Below, one piece after another: positions 13,764 through 61,424 of a stretch of DNA of 64,000 nt. The notes beneath the pieces were generated by a model that did no database searches, was not told where the DNA came from, and worked only from the letters and a program-made list of their open reading frames with translations. Source of the stretch: Escherichia phage OliverMaurmann_Bas86. Positions within the stretch are counted from its first letter, which is position 1. Each line of letters starts with the position of its first letter. The stretch lies in sequence record PQ850622.1. The stretch is one strand, 5' to 3'. The translations under genes and the position numbers were made by a program.

Positions 13764-13783
13764 AGCCCCTTCGGGGGCTTTTA
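13764..13783 (+). terminator. Rho-independent terminator (GCCCC-TTCG-GGGGC + TTTT)
   Basis: Read directly after tail fiber stop. Confidence 0.6.
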
Positions 13784-13848
13784 GGAGTGAAACTGGTGAA
13801 TAAGTAATGAAACTACTATATCCAAAAGGAAAATGAAAGGAGAAGAAA

Positions 13849-14067
13849 ATGAAAATGATGAAACAGGTAACTTATGGTCTAGCTTGCTTAGGGACAGGTT
13901 TTGTGATTTCCACAGCAGTACCTGTAAATGCAGTAGGCTCTCATTCTATTATAGAAGCTCCTGTAGAGAAGCTTAGTTCTCAATGTAAACAAAGGACCAT
14001 TCAAAATAATTTGGTTGTTATTTGCCCAGACGCTCAATCTTCAGCTCTGAGAAAAATTCTTCCTTAA
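13849..14067 (+). CDS. Small protein with one N-terminal hydrophobic segment; holin candidate or secreted periplasmic protein
   Basis: 72 aa; MKMMKQ then ~20 hydrophobic residues, possible cleavage at VNA/VG; two Cys in C-terminal part; directly upstream of lysozyme gene. Confidence 0.4.
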   Translation: MKMMKQVTYGLACLGTGFVISTAVPVNAVGSHSIIEAPVEKLSSQCKQRTIQNNLVVICPDAQSSALRKILP

Positions 14068-14100
14068 TTGACCTAAAATAACAACAAAAGGAGGTCAAAG

Positions 14101-14592
14101 ATGGACGCTATCGCATTGCCGCCTGTACAGATGAGCCTAAGTCCGGCTGGTATGGAGTTTATCATGAAGCATGAAGGCATGAGAACTAAAGCCTATAAAG
14201 ACTCCGCTGGAATCTGGACTATATGTGTAGGGGCTACGCGCGATATGAATGGGTATCCAGTAAGACAAGGATTAACGTATTCTATAGAGGATTGTCTAGC
14301 TCTGCTAGATAGAGACACACAAGACTCTGTTCGTGCTACTCAGAAAAACATAAGAGTTCCTATGCTAGCTCATGAATTTGATGCTGTCACTTCTTTCAAC
14401 TTTAATGTTGGTGGTGGTGCTTTGTCAGCTTCAAAACTTAGGAAAGTGATCAACGGAGATGTGAAGGGTGATGTTTACTCAGAGTTCTTACGTTGGGATA
14501 AGATAACTGTTAAAGGTGTAAAGCAGCGGAGTCCGGGACTTCACAATCGCAGGGTTGCAGAAGCAAATCTATACACTACAGGAAAATATTAA
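14101..14592 (+). CDS. Endolysin, T4-type lysozyme (GH24-like)
   Basis: 163 aa; FIMKHEGMRTKAYKDSAGIWTICVG matches the E...G...Y.D..G..TIG.G lysozyme signature; no N-terminal hydrophobic segment. Confidence 0.85.
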   Translation: MDAIALPPVQMSLSPAGMEFIMKHEGMRTKAYKDSAGIWTICVGATRDMNGYPVRQGLTYSIEDCLALLDRDTQDSVRATQKNIRVPMLAHEFDAVTSFNFNVGGGALSASKLRKVINGDVKGDVYSEFLRWDKITVKGVKQRSPGLHNRRVAEANLYTTGKY

Positions 14593-19458: not shown

Positions 19459-20490
19459 ATGGCTTATGGAATATGGTGTCAACCTGTAGGACCGGGACCA
19501 GCTTCCCCAGCTCCTCTCTTTATTGATAGCGGAAGCACTTTTCCTCAAATAAAAAATTCAATAAGTGGGAGTTTCAACTTTAACGGGGCTGGTAGATCTT
19601 TTCCTATTAGTGGGTGGGATGGGAGTGGTCAAATAGTGATTGTACCAACAGGCTCTCTTTGTTGGCAATGGGAGGTTCCTCCTAATTTAGTTCCTGATGT
19701 ATATTGTGTCAACAATATCTATGTAGAGAATAACACATCATTCAGGGTTACATTAAACCAAAACCCGGGAAGCAACCCTTTGTTTGACTGTGGTTTCAAT
19801 GTATATCAAATCTACCCAAGAGCTGATAGGAACTATGGAATAACCTTCTCTAATACAGCTGATTATTTCTCTATCTCAGATGCTGGGATTGTGGGTCAAT
19901 GCATCTGGGCTTGGCAAGGAACTATAAACAACGCTCTACAGATACCTGATATTGGTGGTTTCTATATGCCTAATGCTGTAGTTTTTGCTAACTGGTCTGA
20001 TGGTGGTGTTGGTTTATCTTATACATCAGGAGATAGGGTGATTCGAGTTTATCAAAACAGGTCTTATAACAATGGCAACACTAATGAAGGTGGTTCTGTG
20101 TTTGCTAGGGTTGCTGTATTTTGTAATGGTGCTGGGGTTCCTGAACACAACGGCGGTTTAAATATATACTCTCCCGGAACTACTCAGTGCGTATTCTCTA
20201 CTTATAGGTCTCCTTTTACAGTAGACACTTTCGTAGGCTCAGCAGGTGGAAATACTGGCTTAGCTTATCCTATGATTCCTCTGTCTTCTGGAGTTGGAGC
20301 TATCAGAGGAAGTGGGAGTGGTTGGTATTATCAACAAATGCGTTCTCATACCATGTCAGGGTCTTCAATAGGAACTGGATATGGTAGATATATGTTCCAA
20401 TGGTCTAATAGTTATGACTTAGGTTCTAATGCTGCTGTTAATATCTCCATCCCTGTAATCAACGCTGCTAAGATTTTTGCAGGTTTATGA
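19459..20490 (+). CDS. Virion structural protein, Gly/Ser/Asn-rich
   Basis: 343 aa ORF tightly packed after the previous gene. Confidence 0.45.
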   Translation: MAYGIWCQPVGPGPASPAPLFIDSGSTFPQIKNSISGSFNFNGAGRSFPISGWDGSGQIVIVPTGSLCWQWEVPPNLVPDVYCVNNIYVENNTSFRVTLNQNPGSNPLFDCGFNVYQIYPRADRNYGITFSNTADYFSISDAGIVGQCIWAWQGTINNALQIPDIGGFYMPNAVVFANWSDGGVGLSYTSGDRVIRVYQNRSYNNGNTNEGGSVFARVAVFCNGAGVPEHNGGLNIYSPGTTQCVFSTYRSPFTVDTFVGSAGGNTGLAYPMIPLSSGVGAIRGSGSGWYYQQMRSHTMSGSSIGTGYGRYMFQWSNSYDLGSNAAVNISIPVINAAKIFAGL

Positions 20491-20502
20491 TAAGGAGTTT
20501 TT

Positions 20503-21300
20503 ATGACAAAAATAATGGGAGTGTCAGAGCTTGACCCTTTGGTCCAACAAGCTTCTAAGAAATATGGCATTCCTGCTGCTCTTATACATGCAGTGATTCA
20601 GAGAGAGTCTAATGGAAGACCTTCTGTTGAATCTGGTACAGGACCAGTAGGTTTAATGCAAATCAGTAAGGGGTTGGCTAAAGATTATGGATATAAACTT
20701 GAAGATAGGTTAGACCCTGCAAAGAATATTGACATGGGTGCTAGATATTTAAGAGATAACCTGAAAGCTTTTGATGGTGATGTGAGGAAGGCTTTGGTGG
20801 GGTATTCAGAAGGAACTGGTGGTGCTAAGCAAATGTTTGCTGGTAAGAGAGGGTTTACACCTCAAGCTTTAGATTCAATGAATAATAAGCTGTTCCTACC
20901 ATTCTTTGATAAGAACACAGCAGCGGCACAAGTGGCTAATCCTGTAGGTGCTTTGAAAGCAGTTCAGCCTGTGGACCAGTTTGATTCTAATACGCTGACT
21001 AGAGAAGGTGCTGCAAACGCTCCTACTCAAGCAGAGATAGCTGCAAGCAAGGCTGGAGCTTTAGGTGGTCGTCCTGTAGAGTTTTACTCTGATGAACAAT
21101 CTACTGGGGAAAATCAAAAACCTCAACAGAACTTTGGAAATGCTGTATTGGCAGCTGCTTCTATGCTTGCAGGAAAACAGCCTAACTCTCAAACCGTACA
21201 GAGAGCACATGCCCCTACTCAAGCAGGTTCTCGATACAGTCCACAAACACAAGCCGTGCTGAGACGTTTGTCTAGCATAGGTACTGATATTTACAGATAA
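20503..21300 (+). CDS. Virion-associated lytic transglycosylase (SLT domain) protein
   Basis: 265 aa; RESNGRPSVESGTGPVGLMQI matches the SLT catalytic region (ES...G.MQ). Confidence 0.8.
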   Translation: MTKIMGVSELDPLVQQASKKYGIPAALIHAVIQRESNGRPSVESGTGPVGLMQISKGLAKDYGYKLEDRLDPAKNIDMGARYLRDNLKAFDGDVRKALVGYSEGTGGAKQMFAGKRGFTPQALDSMNNKLFLPFFDKNTAAAQVANPVGALKAVQPVDQFDSNTLTREGAANAPTQAEIAASKAGALGGRPVEFYSDEQSTGENQKPQQNFGNAVLAAASMLAGKQPNSQTVQRAHAPTQAGSRYSPQTQAVLRRLSSIGTDIYR

Positions 21301-32850: not shown

Positions 32851-33075
32851 TTAAACTACACAGAATAAATACATTGCTGTTTCAGGGGAAGGTATGTGGT
32901 CACTAGGATATCTAACCCTAATCCACTCATCATCTTCTGCTACATAATAAGCCCAATAAGACCCATTTTCATTAATAAAGAACTTGAAGGTACAACCAAA
33001 GATTTGGTTATTGTGTTCCCATACTGCATGAAACTGAGTAACACCTTCTGGTATTGTAAGTTCCGCTCTGATCAT
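32851..33075 (-). CDS. Hypothetical protein
   Basis: 74 aa ORF. Confidence 0.35.
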   Translation of the reverse strand: MIRAELTIPEGVTQFHAVWEHNNQIFGCTFKFFINENGSYWAYYVAEDDEWIRVRYPSDHIPSPETAMYLFCVV

Positions 33076-33371
33076 TGTATTCCTCTCTCCTTTAGAGCTT
33101 TAAGCAAACCGTTGTGGTTAGCGGCACAGGTTGTATAATTGTCCTGATACCACTCGAGTGTTGTTGCAAGTGCTACTCCCTGTCCACTCTGAAGTAAAGG
33201 GAGGTCTACATCACATTCAGCTTTTAGGTTTGTTGGTAAGGGCATTAGCTGCCTGCTGTTGTCGCTCGTTGAACAAGCCATCAAACTAGAAGCGAGCAAA
33301 ATCACCAAACAACTCTTTTGCTTTTTCTTTGTAAGCATTTTCTGCACCTTCTTGAGTGCTATGATAACCAA
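33072..33371 (-). CDS. Lipoprotein (o-spanin candidate); true start probably the internal Met (MLTKKKQK...)
   Basis: Signal peptide with lipobox L-M-A-C (KKKQKSCLVILLASSLMAC); small mature domain with 3 Cys. Confidence 0.4.
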   Translation of the reverse strand: MVIIALKKVQKMLTKKKQKSCLVILLASSLMACSTSDNSRQLMPLPTNLKAECDVDLPLLQSGQGVALATTLEWYQDNYTTCAANHNGLLKALKERGIQ

Positions 33372-33780
33372 GCCAAATTACTTTGTTTTGATATCCGATA
33401 CGAGCACTCCATTTATTAATATCTGACCTGTATCCTACACCTTTTATTCCAGTTAAAGAGTTCTTTTGAACTATTTTATTGGCATTGTTGAGGACAGGTG
33501 TTGCTTTTCTTAGATTGCTCCAAGAGTTATTAGACTTATCTAAATCTTTATGGTCTATTTGGAAATCGGGAATTTCTCCAGTTTTTATATACCAAGCAAC
33601 TCGGTGAGCTTTGTATGTCTTTCTCTGAAAATTCAATGTTACATAACCAGCTTTTGTTTTACACCCTGCAACCTTTCCTGCGAGTCTTGAGTTCCACTGA
33701 GCGCTCTTATCTTTAGAATGTTTCCAGTACAGAAGACCGGAAGCCTCGTCATAAGACAGATATTTAATTAATTCTTTAAT
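33286..33780 (-). CDS. HNH homing endonuclease (HNH_3 + AP2-like), predicted ATT start
   Basis: ORF track starts at TTG 33636, but the frame stays open upstream and encodes the conserved N-terminal YLSYDEASGLLYW module; only candidate initiator is ATT 33780-33778, 7 nt after GGAGG. Confidence 0.55.
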   Translation of the reverse strand: MKELIKYLSYDEASGLLYWKHSKDKSAQWNSRLAGKVAGCKTKAGYVTLNFQRKTYKAHRVAWYIKTGEIPDFQIDHKDLDKSNNSWSNLRKATPVLNNANKIVQKNSLTGIKGVGYRSDINKWSARIGYQNKVIWLGYHSTQEGAENAYKEKAKELFGDFARF

Positions 33781-34109
33781 TTCAGTGCCTCCGCTGCTTG
33801 TTGTTGTCGTTCATTGAAAAGTCCTACATACTCATCACTAGCACACACATTGTAAAAAACTGGCTTAGTCTTTTCATAATGCATCTCTTTGTAAATAGTT
33901 TCCGTGTTCTTCTTCCAGTTAGATAAACCAGTCAGAACTTTCTGAGCCACTTCATCAGCAGCCTTAGCTCTCTCAACCTCAATCTCTTGCTGTTTCTTCT
34001 CTTGGTCAAGAGCATTACTATCACTTCTGTATTGCTCAAACTTGACACCACCAAAGAAAACCAGAGCTGTGAAGATTAAAAAACCTATATTGTTTTGAAG
34101 CTTTTCCAT
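33768..34109 (-). CDS. Membrane-anchored coiled-coil protein (i-spanin candidate)
   Basis: N-terminal TM segment IGFLIFTALVFFGG then charged coiled coil; ATG 34109 with GGAG RBS preferred over the GTG 34133 of the ORF track, which lies inside a terminator hairpin. Confidence 0.45.
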   Translation of the reverse strand: MEKLQNNIGFLIFTALVFFGGVKFEQYRSDSNALDQEKKQQEIEVERAKAADEVAQKVLTGLSNWKKNTETIYKEMHYEKTKPVFYNVCASDEYVGLFNERQQQAAEALKLKN

Positions 34110-34122
34110 TTTAACTCCAACG

Positions 34123-34145
34123 AAAAAAGCCACCCGAAGGTGGCT
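34123..34145 (-). terminator. Rho-independent terminator after SSB gene (AGCCACC-UUCG-GGUGGCU + U6 on - strand)
   Basis: Read directly; near-identical hairpin recurs at 37031-37054. Confidence 0.6.
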
Positions 34146-36446: not shown

Positions 36447-36626
36447 TTAACGAGTTGTAGTACGACTCCAACCTTCAACATAGCAATGACCGCCTACAAA
36501 CTTAGTAGGTGCATTAAATTCTTTTGATATTCGTGTCTCACAATCTTCTTTGCTGAAGTCTCCAAAAATATCTATTACCCAAAGAAACAAAGCAAAAGCG
36601 ACAGCCCAGCATATAAACTTCTTCAT
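36447..36626 (-). CDS. Small membrane protein (59 aa), absent from ORF track
   Basis: MKKFICWAVAFALFLWVIDIFG... ; start overlaps the stop of the upstream gene in an ATGA arrangement. Confidence 0.35.
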   Translation of the reverse strand: MKKFICWAVAFALFLWVIDIFGDFSKEDCETRISKEFNAPTKFVGGHCYVEGWSRTTTR

Positions 36627-44571: not shown

Positions 44572-44757
44572 TTACAGCATAACAAGAACGATAATAAGAG
44601 GTAGTGTTATAGCAAAATGTACCAGAACAACACTACCTAGCTTGATAGCTTTAACATCCTCTTCTGCTGGGTTTTCTTTAATTGCTAAATTTCGAGCTTT
44701 ATAGATAATAGTACCAACTATTAACGACCACACGGCCCACACAACCAATGAAATCAT
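44572..44757 (-). CDS. Small two-TM membrane protein
   Basis: 61 aa; two hydrophobic segments separated by a charged loop. Confidence 0.45.
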   Translation of the reverse strand: MISLVVWAVWSLIVGTIIYKARNLAIKENPAEEDVKAIKLGSVVLVHFAITLPLIIVLVML

Positions 44758-44766
44758 ATCAAACCC

Positions 44767-44946
44767 TTATGCAGTCAGAAGGTGAAGCAGGAATGGGATA
44801 ACAACAGCTACGACAACCATGATGGTTGATGCTGTTTGAATCTCACCTTTCTTGTCAGGGGTTTCTTCAATAAGCTTACCAGAAGCCCAATAGATACCAC
44901 CGCCAATAAAGATAGCCCAAATACCCCATACGATTGCTGATAACAT
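44767..44946 (-). CDS. Small two-TM membrane protein (59 aa), paralog of 44572-44757; absent from ORF track
   Basis: MLSAIVWGIWAIFIGGGIYWASGK... parallels MISLVVWAVWSLIVGTIIYKARN... Confidence 0.4.
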   Translation of the reverse strand: MLSAIVWGIWAIFIGGGIYWASGKLIEETPDKKGEIQTASTIMVVVAVVIPFLLHLLTA

Positions 44947-60897: not shown

Positions 60898-61260
60898 TTA
60901 CTCTGCTACCAAAAGGCTCAGAGATTTGCGAATGTAGTCAATACTACGGAAGTTTCGATAGTTCTCTTGGAAGCGCATTTTTTCAAACTCTGCTTCCTGA
61001 AGCTCTACCTCTGCTGCTTTATATCCTGATAAAGCTAAACTTACCACATCCTGAGGTAAGGTATTACGACGGCGAATAAGATATTTATTCGCTTTTAGTT
61101 TACCTTGTGCACGAGCCATTTTGGCCTTTGCCGCCTTGATACCATGAGAAATCCAAAGCAGTTGCTGTTTCAGATCTTCCTCATCCATACCACCTAAATC
61201 ATTTGCTACTTTATGAAGCGTAGACAGGTTCACATGGCCTTTAATGGGGCGTAGGTTCAT
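60898..61260 (-). CDS. Hypothetical protein
   Basis: 120 aa, helical/basic. Confidence 0.45.
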   Translation of the reverse strand: MNLRPIKGHVNLSTLHKVANDLGGMDEEDLKQQLLWISHGIKAAKAKMARAQGKLKANKYLIRRRNTLPQDVVSLALSGYKAAEVELQEAEFEKMRFQENYRNFRSIDYIRKSLSLLVAE

Positions 61261-61424
61261 AACTTCTCCTGTTTGTCACATTGATTGGTTAGCCAGTTGT
61301 AAGACCCTCTGTTATTCTTGCTTAACTCGCAAGATGCAAAAGAGTACATCCTGACAAACCCCACAGTGGCTAAGCAAATAAAGATTGCTGCCAATAAGAA
61401 TTTAGCTTTCAACTTATTATCCAT
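61257..61424 (-). CDS. Small membrane/lipoprotein-like protein (55 aa), absent from ORF track
   Basis: MDNKLKAKFLLAAIFICLATVGF...; stop overlaps the next gene's ATG (ATGA); GAAGAGG RBS. Confidence 0.3.
   Translation of the reverse strand: MDNKLKAKFLLAAIFICLATVGFVRMYSFASCELSKNNRGSYNWLTNQCDKQEKL

What the first reader, a model, noticed from the sequence alone, without database searches (positions are those of the whole stretch)
13849..14592. Holin-like gene and endolysin embedded in the tail gene block
A canonical T4-type lysozyme with no signal sequence is immediately preceded by a 72-aa ORF with a single N-terminal hydrophobic segment and a short Cys-containing C-terminal domain. The pair sits between tail fiber genes, while the spanin-like pair is on the other strand near SSB. 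The small ORF could instead be a cleaved periplasmic protein.
Basis: inference. Interest (0 to 1): 0.4.

Follow-up and report, generated by a model that had tools for sequence, protein, structure and literature searches.

The report
Known Kuravirus putative holin plus endolysin
The two genes are real, but they are the long-annotated "putative holin + lysozyme" pair of phiEco32-like E. coli phages; the only open point is whether the small protein is truly a holin or an exported periplasmic mini-protein.

Summary
ORF 13849-14067 (72 aa) and ORF 14101-14592 (163 aa) are real, conserved genes lying between tail genes of a Gordonclarkvirinae (phiEco32/SU7-like) coliphage. The best DNA match is phage Bas87 at 96%.

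The 163-aa protein is a GH24 lysozyme (Pfam PF00959, 107 bits). It has the E25/D34/T40 catalytic triad and no signal or SAR domain.

The 72-aa protein matches PHROG 11161, labelled "holin". It is the same gene as phiEco32 phi32_16 "putative holin", deposited in 2008. Published Kuravirus papers already describe a holin-endolysin pair inside the morphogenesis genes, so the finding is already known.

No experimental test of the holin role turned up, and no curated holin family is matched. The sequence evidence is split:
- An invariant P-V-x-A motif looks like a signal-peptidase site, as in the cleaved T4 antiholin RI.
- Y9, G10, C13 and G17 inside the hydrophobic core are invariant down to 39% identity, which argues for a working membrane helix.

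The gene is present in all 98 related phage records. It is always next to the lysozyme and is the only membrane-targeted small protein in the late gene block. My best reading is a single-helix holin-like lysis protein (about 0.5). The main rival is an exported periplasmic lysis regulator (about 0.3). Interest is low.

The parts
13764..13783 (+). G+C-rich hairpin (AGCCCC-TTCG-GGGGCT followed by TTTT) directly after the tail-fibre stop codon. It could be a terminator, an attenuator or an RNA-stabilising element.
   Evidence: Read. The stem-loop is conserved in phiEco32 and in the distant metagenomic lineage L005 (alignment A4). It did not pass the simple terminator scan because the T-run is short.
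13802..13822 (+). Conserved intergenic motif AAGTAATGAA..TA..TATAT. It may be a variant of the phage-sigma (gp36) middle/late promoter consensus tAATGTAtA.
   Evidence: The motif is invariant across window, phiEco32 and L005, although synonymous sites in the adjacent genes are saturated. The consensus comes from PMC8948821 and PMC4281155. GTAATGWA is not enriched window-wide, so promoter function is an inference.
13849..14067 (+). 72-aa putative holin, homologue of phiEco32 phi32_16 (PHROG 11161). It has a basic N-terminus (residues 1-6), a hydrophobic segment at residues 7-28 (nt 13867-13932) ending in P-V-N-A, a variable linker (29-40) and a conserved C-terminal domain (41-72, nt 13969-14064) with C46 and C59.
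14101..14592 (+). Soluble GH24 endolysin (163 aa) with catalytic residues E25 (nt 14173-14175), D34 (nt 14200-14202) and T40 (nt 14218-14220). It has no signal or SAR domain.
   Evidence: PF00959 at 107 bits against a cut-off of 22.3. phrog_7 endolysin. PDB endolysins 8app and 7m5i, and P22 and P21 lysozymes. Hydropathy and triad.
33768..34112 (-). i-spanin (Rz-like; one N-terminal membrane helix). It is part of the same lysis system but lies in the oppositely transcribed middle/early gene region (exact temporal class not checked).
   Evidence: phrog_1152 'Rz-like spanin' at E 3.4e-33. ORF. phiEco32 spanins are catalogued in PMC6139136.
33072..33338 (-). o-spanin lipoprotein (signal plus lipobox ...SSLMAC|S). 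It is separated from the i-spanin by an HNH endonuclease cassette.
   Evidence: ORF. phrog_2425 and a weak phrog_456 Rz-like spanin match. SU7 annotates the homologue as O-spanin.

Best explanation
The two genes form the lysis cassette of a phiEco32-like podophage. It is a small late transcription unit placed between tail genes.

The 163-aa GH24 lysozyme accumulates, folded and active, in the cytoplasm. The 72-aa protein inserts into the inner membrane, with its basic N-terminus most likely inside and its C-terminus most likely outside. Its hydrophobic helix packs through the invariant Y9/G10/C13/G17/S21 positions. Its conserved periplasmic domain, probably a C46-C59 disulfide-stapled beta-hairpin followed by a short helix, helps the protein oligomerise.

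At a critical concentration the protein permeabilises the membrane and releases the lysozyme to the cell wall. The Rz/Rz1-type spanins encoded at 33-34 kb then disrupt the outer membrane. In this reading it acts as a miniature holin with the topology of T4 T (one helix, N-in/C-out), without being homologous to T.

Shown here: gene reality, the lysozyme's identity and lack of an export signal, the invariable linkage of the two genes, and the conservation pattern. Inferred: topology, disulfide, oligomerisation, hole formation and timing.
For: - The small gene is present in 98/98 related phage records. In all eight fully readable contexts it lies immediately upstream of the PF00959 lysozyme: four GenBank records and four metagenomic loci of the P0025 lineage. 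In the most distant lineage, P0026/L009, the downstream gene is cut by the contig end and was not identified.
- The lysozyme has no signal or SAR domain and therefore needs a membrane lesion to reach the wall.
- It is the only small membrane-targeted protein in the late (+ strand) gene block. The + strand cluster is the late class in phiEco32 (PMC8948821).
- Y9, G10, C13 and G17 are invariant, and S21 and A23 nearly so, inside the hydrophobic segment down to 39% identity. The linker has no invariant position. That is more constraint than a disposable signal peptide needs.
- There is strong purifying selection.
- The flank charges (N +2, C-flank -1) and an invariant Cys pair favour N-in/C-out.
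- The virion's own wall-degrading enzyme is a different protein, the SLT transglycosylase (SU10 gp20, PMC9509320). The GH24 enzyme is therefore the endolysin.
Against: - I found no experimental test of holin function. Every label traces back to annotation.
- No Pfam or NCBIfam holin family is matched, there are no PDB relatives, and the AlphaFold model has low confidence (pLDDT 52).
- The hydrophobic segment ends in a conserved P-V-x-A motif with a never-Pro +1 residue, which is a textbook signal-peptidase I site. If it is cleaved, the product is soluble and cannot be a holin.
- No validated holin that I know of has this N-in/C-out form with a 44-residue periplasmic tail.
- Counting K+R over the whole C-terminal tail (5, against 2 at the N-terminus) leaves the opposite topology possible. 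The most distant homologue has no N-terminal positive charge.
- Other small membrane proteins exist elsewhere in the genome.
Confidence: 0.5

Rival explanations
1. The 72-aa product is a Sec-exported precursor cleaved by signal peptidase I after A28. Cleavage yields a 44-residue, disulfide-stapled periplasmic mini-protein that regulates lysis rather than causing it. It would be a functional analogue of the T4 antiholin RI, or another modulator of holin or endolysin. The true holin would then be another small membrane protein: the tandem two-helix phrog_9296 proteins at 44572-44946, or the bitopic phrog_14089 protein at 36447-36626.
For: - The architecture is n-region MKMMKQ, an 18-residue h-region and a c-region P-V-N-A. 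A at -1 is invariant and V (once T) at -3 is kept across all homologues.
- T4 RI has the same architecture and an aliphatic -3 residue. It was shown experimentally to be cleaved and released (PMC8385771).
- The invariant Cys pair implies a periplasmic location.
- Alternative membrane proteins with stronger hydrophobic helices exist.
Against: - The invariant Y9/G10/C13/G17 inside the h-region are unexpected for a discarded signal peptide.
- No T-like holin or other recognised holin family was found among the window's membrane proteins or in the rest of the Bas87 genome.
- The phrog_9296 proteins lack a charged C-terminal tail and sit among replication genes. phrog_14089 is detected in only 68 of 98 records and evolves fast (59% identity to Bas87, whose DNA is about 96% identical over the region of this finding).
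- There is no sequence similarity to RI (no Pfam hit).
Confidence: 0.3
2. The small protein is exported but has no role in lysis. It could be a periplasmic superinfection-exclusion or lysozyme-inhibitor protein in the manner of T4 Spackle, or a host-envelope modifier that simply travels with the lysozyme gene.
For: The signal-peptide-like N-terminus and small Cys-containing periplasmic domain. The genome encodes several other small exported or bitopic two-Cys proteins of unknown function. The Spackle analogy comes from my own knowledge of T4 and was not tested here.
Against: Exclusion genes are typically early and variable. This gene lies in the late cluster, is universal (98/98), is highly conserved in its C-terminal domain (pN 0.044) and is always adjacent to the endolysin. 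The phage's own entry enzyme is an SLT transglycosylase rather than a GH24 enzyme.
Confidence: 0.08

Closest known systems
phiEco32 phi32_16 ('putative holin') and phi32_17 ('lysis protein'), with their orthologues in SU10, SU7, NJ01, YF01 and Bas87
   Same: These are orthologous genes. The small protein is 78% identical to phiEco32's and 100% identical to those of SU7, Bas87 and MLP3. The order (tail fibre, small gene, GH24 lysozyme, Gp10_C tail protein) is the same. The pair is described as lying within the morphogenesis genes in PMC7881722 and PMC9965538.
   Different: Nothing substantive. Only strain-level sequence differences.
Phage T4 holin T (class III: one membrane helix, N-in/C-out, periplasmic domain with a disulfide)
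   Same: The predicted topology and the presence of a periplasmic Cys pair. It also works with a soluble GH24 lysozyme. The description of T comes from my own knowledge and from the abstracts listed.
   Different: There is no sequence similarity and no Pfam hit. The protein is 72 aa against 218 aa, with a 6-residue cytoplasmic N-terminus and a 44-residue periplasmic part. A signal-peptidase-like site follows the helix.
Phage T4 antiholin RI
   Same: A small protein with an N-terminal Sec-type hydrophobic domain that ends in aliphatic-x-Ala, followed by a small periplasmic domain. RI is experimentally cleaved (PMC8385771).
   Different: There is no homology. No T-type holin partner is present in this genome. 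RI is not encoded next to the endolysin (my own knowledge). Here the h-region carries invariant residues.
P22 gp19, P21 R and other lambdoid GH24 endolysins
   Same: The 163-aa enzyme shares the fold family and the E-8-D-5-T triad. PDB hits include 2anv (P22), 3hde (P21 R) and 4zpu (RrrD).
   Different: Unlike P21 R, it has no N-terminal SAR domain.

Membership tests
GH24 phage lysozyme (Pfam PF00959) | Profile match above the curated threshold | tested here: met
   107.2 bits against a cut-off of 22.3, E 9.6e-31, covering residues 23-154. PDB endolysin relatives at E up to 1.3e-27.
GH24 phage lysozyme (Pfam PF00959) | Catalytic Glu-8 residues-Asp-5 residues-Thr triad | tested here: met
   E25, D34 and T40 within HEGMRTKAYKDSAGIWTICVG. 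They align to the equivalent motif of 8app.
Canonical (holin-dependent, cytoplasmic) endolysin | No signal peptide or SAR domain | tested here: met
   The highest 19-residue Kyte-Doolittle mean is 1.0, and there are three Pro in the first 15 residues.
Holin (functional class) | Small protein with at least one membrane helix, encoded next to the endolysin | tested here: met
   72 aa, with a hydrophobic segment at residues 7-28 and 33 nt between the two genes. The linkage is kept in all eight fully readable contexts; in L009 the downstream gene is cut by the contig end.
Holin (functional class) | Homology to an experimentally validated holin family | tested here: not met
   No Pfam or NCBIfam holin model is matched at E <= 0.1. 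The only match is PHROG 11161, whose 'holin' label I take to derive from database annotation, since no experimental study turned up. A profile search of 1.84 billion representatives found 5 hits, of which only two are full-length small homologues from phages of the same type; the other three match a fragment or repeats of longer proteins.
Holin (functional class) | Stays membrane-integrated (not cleaved), and forms lethal, energy-poison-triggerable lesions that release endolysin | not testable with these tools
   This needs expression, fractionation and lysis assays. The sequence shows a conserved signal-peptidase-like site, so integration is uncertain.
Holin (functional class) | Late expression | not tested
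   Inferred from its position in the + strand late cluster (PMC8948821) and from a conserved promoter-like motif upstream.
T4 T holin family (class III) | Sequence membership in the T family | tested here: not met
   The Pfam scan, the PDB profile search and the deep HMM search gave no hit to any T-like protein.
T4 RI-type secreted antiholin | Cleavable Sec signal peptide | tested here: inconclusive
   P(-4) V(-3) x A(-1) is conserved in all homologues. No SignalP-type predictor was available, and the h-region has invariant residues.
T4 RI-type secreted antiholin | A partner holin with a periplasmic domain encoded in the same genome | tested here: not met
   No T-like protein is present. The only other bitopic small proteins are phrog_14089 and phrog_13048, both of unknown function.
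Bacterial lipoprotein / o-spanin reading of the 72-aa ORF | Lipobox [LVI][ASTVI][GAS]C after a signal sequence | tested here: not met
   The residues before C13 are Y-G-L-A. Homologues have I, L or V at -1, and C13 lies only 13 residues from the start.
Two-component spanin (Rz/Rz1 type) | An i-spanin with an N-terminal membrane helix, plus an o-spanin lipoprotein | tested here: met
   phrog_1152 at E 3.4e-33 for 33768-34133. The o-spanin has the lipobox LMAC|S. The phiEco32 spanins are catalogued in PMC6139136.

The most novel reading that the evidence does not exclude
The universally annotated 'holin' of phiEco32-like phages is not a holin. It is a Sec-exported, signal-peptidase-processed 44-residue periplasmic mini-protein, stapled by a C46-C59 disulfide, that regulates lysis as a functional analogue of T4 RI, possibly with slow processing of an unusually constrained signal peptide acting as part of the clock. 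The real holin of this subfamily would then be unidentified. Candidates are the tandem two-helix phrog_9296 proteins at 44572-44946 and the bitopic protein at 36447-36626.
Probability: 0.3. Interest if true: 0.45.

Novelty: already known. Interest (0 to 1): 0.15.

Why it matters
As it stands, it matters little. The gene pair and its odd position inside the tail-gene block are already recorded in GenBank (phiEco32, 2008) and in several Kuravirus papers.

The residual value is a caution. The 'holin' label carried by about a hundred phage genomes and by PHROG 11161 rests on position and on one predicted hydrophobic segment, and that segment looks at least as much like a cleavable signal peptide.

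Kuraviruses are being developed as therapeutic and biocontrol phages, and their lysis timing is uncharacterised. A simple expression and fractionation experiment would either validate an unusually small T-topology holin or show that the true holin of the subfamily is still unknown.

Tried and rejected
1. Lipoprotein or u-spanin reading of the 72-aa ORF. Rejected: there is no lipobox, homologues have I/L/V at -1, and the Cys is too close to the N-terminus.

2. Hydrophobicity as a discriminator. A crude sum of Hessa-scale values gave +4.6 kcal/mol for the best 19-mer. The same measure gives similar values for Sec signal peptides and for genuine holin helices of lambda S and T7 gp17.5. The scale values and the reference sequences were recalled from memory. 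Hydrophobicity is therefore uninformative here.

3. AlphaFold2 on the 19-sequence alignment. Mean pLDDT was 52 and pTM 0.18. This is too poor for a fold search, and only a tentative helix 7-18 / hairpin 47-58 / helix 61-67 pattern can be read.

4. Profile search of the PDB gave 0 hits at E <= 10.

5. Deep HMM search of 1.84 billion representatives gave only 5 hits. Two (P0025, P0026) are full-length small homologues from syntenic phage contigs, and a third small protein (P0029) matches only the N-terminal 33 residues. Two long proteins matched in many short stretches and were not looked at further.

6. Dual-start motif. MKMMK resembles the Met-Lys-Met start of lambda S, but it is not conserved: homologues start MKILK, MKTLK, MIIK or MILQ. 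I treat it as incidental.

7. Helical periodicity of conservation in residues 7-28. It peaks at 90 degrees, but the shuffle p-value is 0.10 at 100 degrees. This is suggestive only.

8. Phyletic pattern as a way to choose between holin candidates. Both the 72-aa gene and phrog_9296 are confined to the same roughly 92-98 phage records, so the pattern gives no discrimination.

9. The original phiEco32 paper (PubMed 18294652, PMC2587145) is not held in the library. I could not check the basis of the first 'putative holin' call.

10. Group I intron in the spanin locus. There was no Rfam match.

Full report
**What is there**

The window is most of the genome of a Gordonclarkvirinae podophage of E. 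coli, the phiEco32 / SU10 / SU7 group. A 2.5-kb query around the finding matches 98 phage records. The best is Escherichia phage Bas87 at 96.2%, followed by SU7 and IME267 at about 95%.

At the stated coordinates there are two + strand ORFs: 13849-14067 (72 aa) and 14101-14592 (163 aa). Each is preceded by a strong ribosome-binding site.

Upstream is a 715-aa tail fibre with a C-terminal Peptidase_S74 chaperone domain. Downstream are a 267-aa Gp10_C-type tail protein and a 1007-aa Big_2 protein.

**The lysozyme**

The 163-aa protein hits Pfam PF00959 at 107 bits against a cut-off of 22.3. It also hits PHROG 7 'endolysin' and solved endolysins and lysozymes, including those of P22 and P21.

It carries the family's Glu-8-Asp-5-Thr triad (E25, D34, T40). 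Its N-terminus is not hydrophobic: the highest 19-residue Kyte-Doolittle mean is 1.0. It is therefore a soluble cytoplasmic enzyme that needs a membrane lesion to reach the wall.

It is not the virion's entry enzyme. A separate SLT-domain protein at about 20.5-21.3 kb corresponds to the SU10 ejection protein gp20, which has transglycosylase activity (PMC9509320).

**The 72-aa protein is a real gene**

tblastn finds it in all 98 related phage records. The protein database adds 24 clusters.

Against phiEco32, synonymous sites are saturated (pS 0.73). Non-synonymous change is low and regionally structured: pN is 0.044 in the C-terminal domain, 0.18 in the hydrophobic segment and 0.46 in the linker.

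A profile search of 1.84 billion representative proteins found only five hits. Two are full-length small homologues at 39-49% identity. A third small protein matches only the N-terminal 33 residues, and two are long proteins that matched in many short stretches.

The contigs that encode the two full-length homologues are syntenic phage tail-gene blocks. In the four loci of the closer lineage the next gene is again a PF00959 lysozyme. In the single locus of the more distant lineage the next gene is cut by the contig end and was not identified. The family is therefore narrow, and in all eight contexts where the downstream gene could be read (four GenBank records and four metagenomic loci) it lies next to this lysozyme.

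**Already known**

phiEco32 (EU330206, deposited with the 2008 genome paper) annotates the orthologues as phi32_16 'putative holin' and phi32_17 'lysis protein'. PHROG 11161 is labelled 'holin'.

Three papers mention the pair:
[quoted passage not shown] - The YF01 paper says the same.

None of the papers I could read reports an experiment on the small protein. The original phiEco32 paper is not held in the library.

**Is it really a holin?**

No curated holin family is matched in Pfam or NCBIfam. The PDB has no relatives, and the AlphaFold model is poor (pLDDT 52). The argument therefore rests on anatomy. The protein has four parts:
- a basic N-terminus (MKMMKQ);
- an uncharged segment, residues 7-28, ending in P-V-N-A;
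- a variable linker of conserved length, residues 29-40;
- a very conserved C-terminal domain, KLSSQCKQRTIQNNLVVICPD..LR, with invariant C46 and C59 flanking what is probably a beta-hairpin.

The charge difference across the flanks (N +2, C-flank -1) and the invariant Cys pair favour N-in/C-out with a periplasmic disulfide. Even so, the total K+R count of the tail, and the uncharged N-terminus of the most distant homologue, leave the opposite topology possible.

Two features point in opposite directions.

First, the end of the hydrophobic segment is a textbook signal-peptidase I site. A at -1 is invariant, V (once T) sits at -3, P sits at -4 in all but the two most distant homologues, and +1 is never Pro. 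T4 RI has the same architecture and an aliphatic -3 residue. It was long thought to be an uncleaved anchor, but has since been shown experimentally to be cleaved and released (PMC8385771). If the 72-aa protein is cleaved, it is soluble and cannot be a holin.

Second, Y9, G10, C13 and G17 inside the hydrophobic core are invariant, and S21 and A23 nearly so, down to 39% identity. The linker meanwhile has no invariant position. That is more constraint than a disposable signal peptide needs, and the i/i+4 spacing of C13, G17 and S21 suggests a helix-packing face. The periodicity test is not significant, however (p = 0.10).

Hydrophobicity does not help. By the same crude measure, the helices of genuine holins are as weakly hydrophobic as Sec signal peptides.

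**Context**

In the late + strand block this is the only small membrane-targeted protein. The + strand cluster is the late class in phiEco32.

Upstream of the gene there is a hairpin followed by a motif, AAGTAATGAA..TATAT. Both are conserved even in the distant lineage L005. The motif resembles the gp36 promoter consensus tAATGTAtA, so the cassette may have its own late promoter. This is an inference.

Alternative holin candidates exist on the other strand:
- Tandem paralogous two-helix proteins of 59 and 61 aa at 44572-44946 (phrog_9296, unknown function).
- A 59-aa bitopic two-Cys protein at 36447-36626 (phrog_14089).
- Further small membrane proteins in the early region.

The phrog_9296 proteins have no charged C-terminal tail and sit among replication genes. 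phrog_14089 is detectable in only 68 of 98 records and is only 59% identical to its Bas87 counterpart, although Bas87 is 96% identical in DNA over the region of this finding. None of these is a better candidate than the 72-aa gene.

**Verdict**

The most likely reading (about 0.5) is that the annotation is functionally right. The protein would be a one-helix, N-in/C-out, miniature holin-like protein that releases the soluble GH24 endolysin, with the Rz/Rz1-type spanins finishing the job.

The main rival (about 0.3) is a cleaved periplasmic lysis regulator, in which case the real holin is unidentified. A role unrelated to lysis is unlikely (about 0.08).

Membership in any validated holin family was tested and not met, so 'works like a holin' is a hypothesis and 'is a member of family X' cannot be claimed. 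As a finding it is already known and of low interest. The only point worth carrying forward is that the 'holin' label is untested and sequence-ambiguous.

**Seen in passing**

In this phage, and in SU7, PAS59 and Bas87, an HNH_3-AP2 endonuclease cassette of about 545 bp sits exactly at the junction of the i- and o-spanin genes. In relatives without the insertion, such as 101114BS3, the two spanin genes overlap; phiEco32 matches this query in two pieces consistent with the same arrangement, though its region was not read. The cassette brings its own recoded i-spanin C-terminus and a new o-spanin signal peptide and lipobox, so both genes stay intact. No group I intron was detected.

Noticed in passing
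window 33072-34133 (- strand); compare L011 (101114BS3) and L012 (SU7): An HNH_3+AP2 homing-endonuclease cassette of about 545 bp (ORF 33286-33636) sits exactly at the junction of the i-spanin and o-spanin genes. These genes overlap in relatives that lack the insertion. The insertion carries a recoded copy of the i-spanin C-terminus (GLFNERQQQAAEALKLKN*). A new o-spanin signal peptide and lipobox (MLTKKKQKSCLVILLASSLMAC) is encoded within the 3' end of the endonuclease gene. The original i-spanin 3' end persists downstream. An overlapped spanin pair is thus converted into a separated one with both genes intact. Bas87 annotates this as a two-piece (intron-like) spanin, but Rfam finds no group I intron.
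   Followed up: partly
window 44572-44757 and 44767-44946 (- strand): Tandem paralogous small proteins (61 and 59 aa), each with two strongly hydrophobic helices and a charged loop. They match phrog_9296 (unknown function) and are confined to the same phage group. Bas87 has three small ORFs of similar size (59-61 aa) at the corresponding position. They are possible alternative holins or membrane effectors.
   Followed up: partly
window 36447-36626 and 61257-61424 (- strand): Two more small bitopic proteins (59 and 55 aa), each with an N-terminal helix and a short C-terminal tail holding two Cys. This is the same overall architecture as the 72-aa protein. The first (phrog_14089) is only 59% identical to its Bas87 counterpart, although Bas87 is about 96% identical in DNA over the region of this finding. 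That suggests diversifying selection.
   Followed up: partly
The SSB label is unverified.
   Followed up: partly
window about 20500-21300 (+ strand): A second peptidoglycan-degrading enzyme: an SLT-domain transglycosylase in the ejection-protein block. It corresponds to SU10 gp20, the virion enzyme used at entry. The neighbouring 343-aa DUF6453 protein (19459-20490) has a C-terminal hydrophobic segment.
   Followed up: partly
window 13849-13863: The start MKMMK resembles the Met-Lys-Met dual-start (holin/antiholin) motif of lambda S. The second Met is not conserved in homologues (MKILK, MKTLK, MIIK, MILQ), so it is probably incidental.
   Followed up: yes
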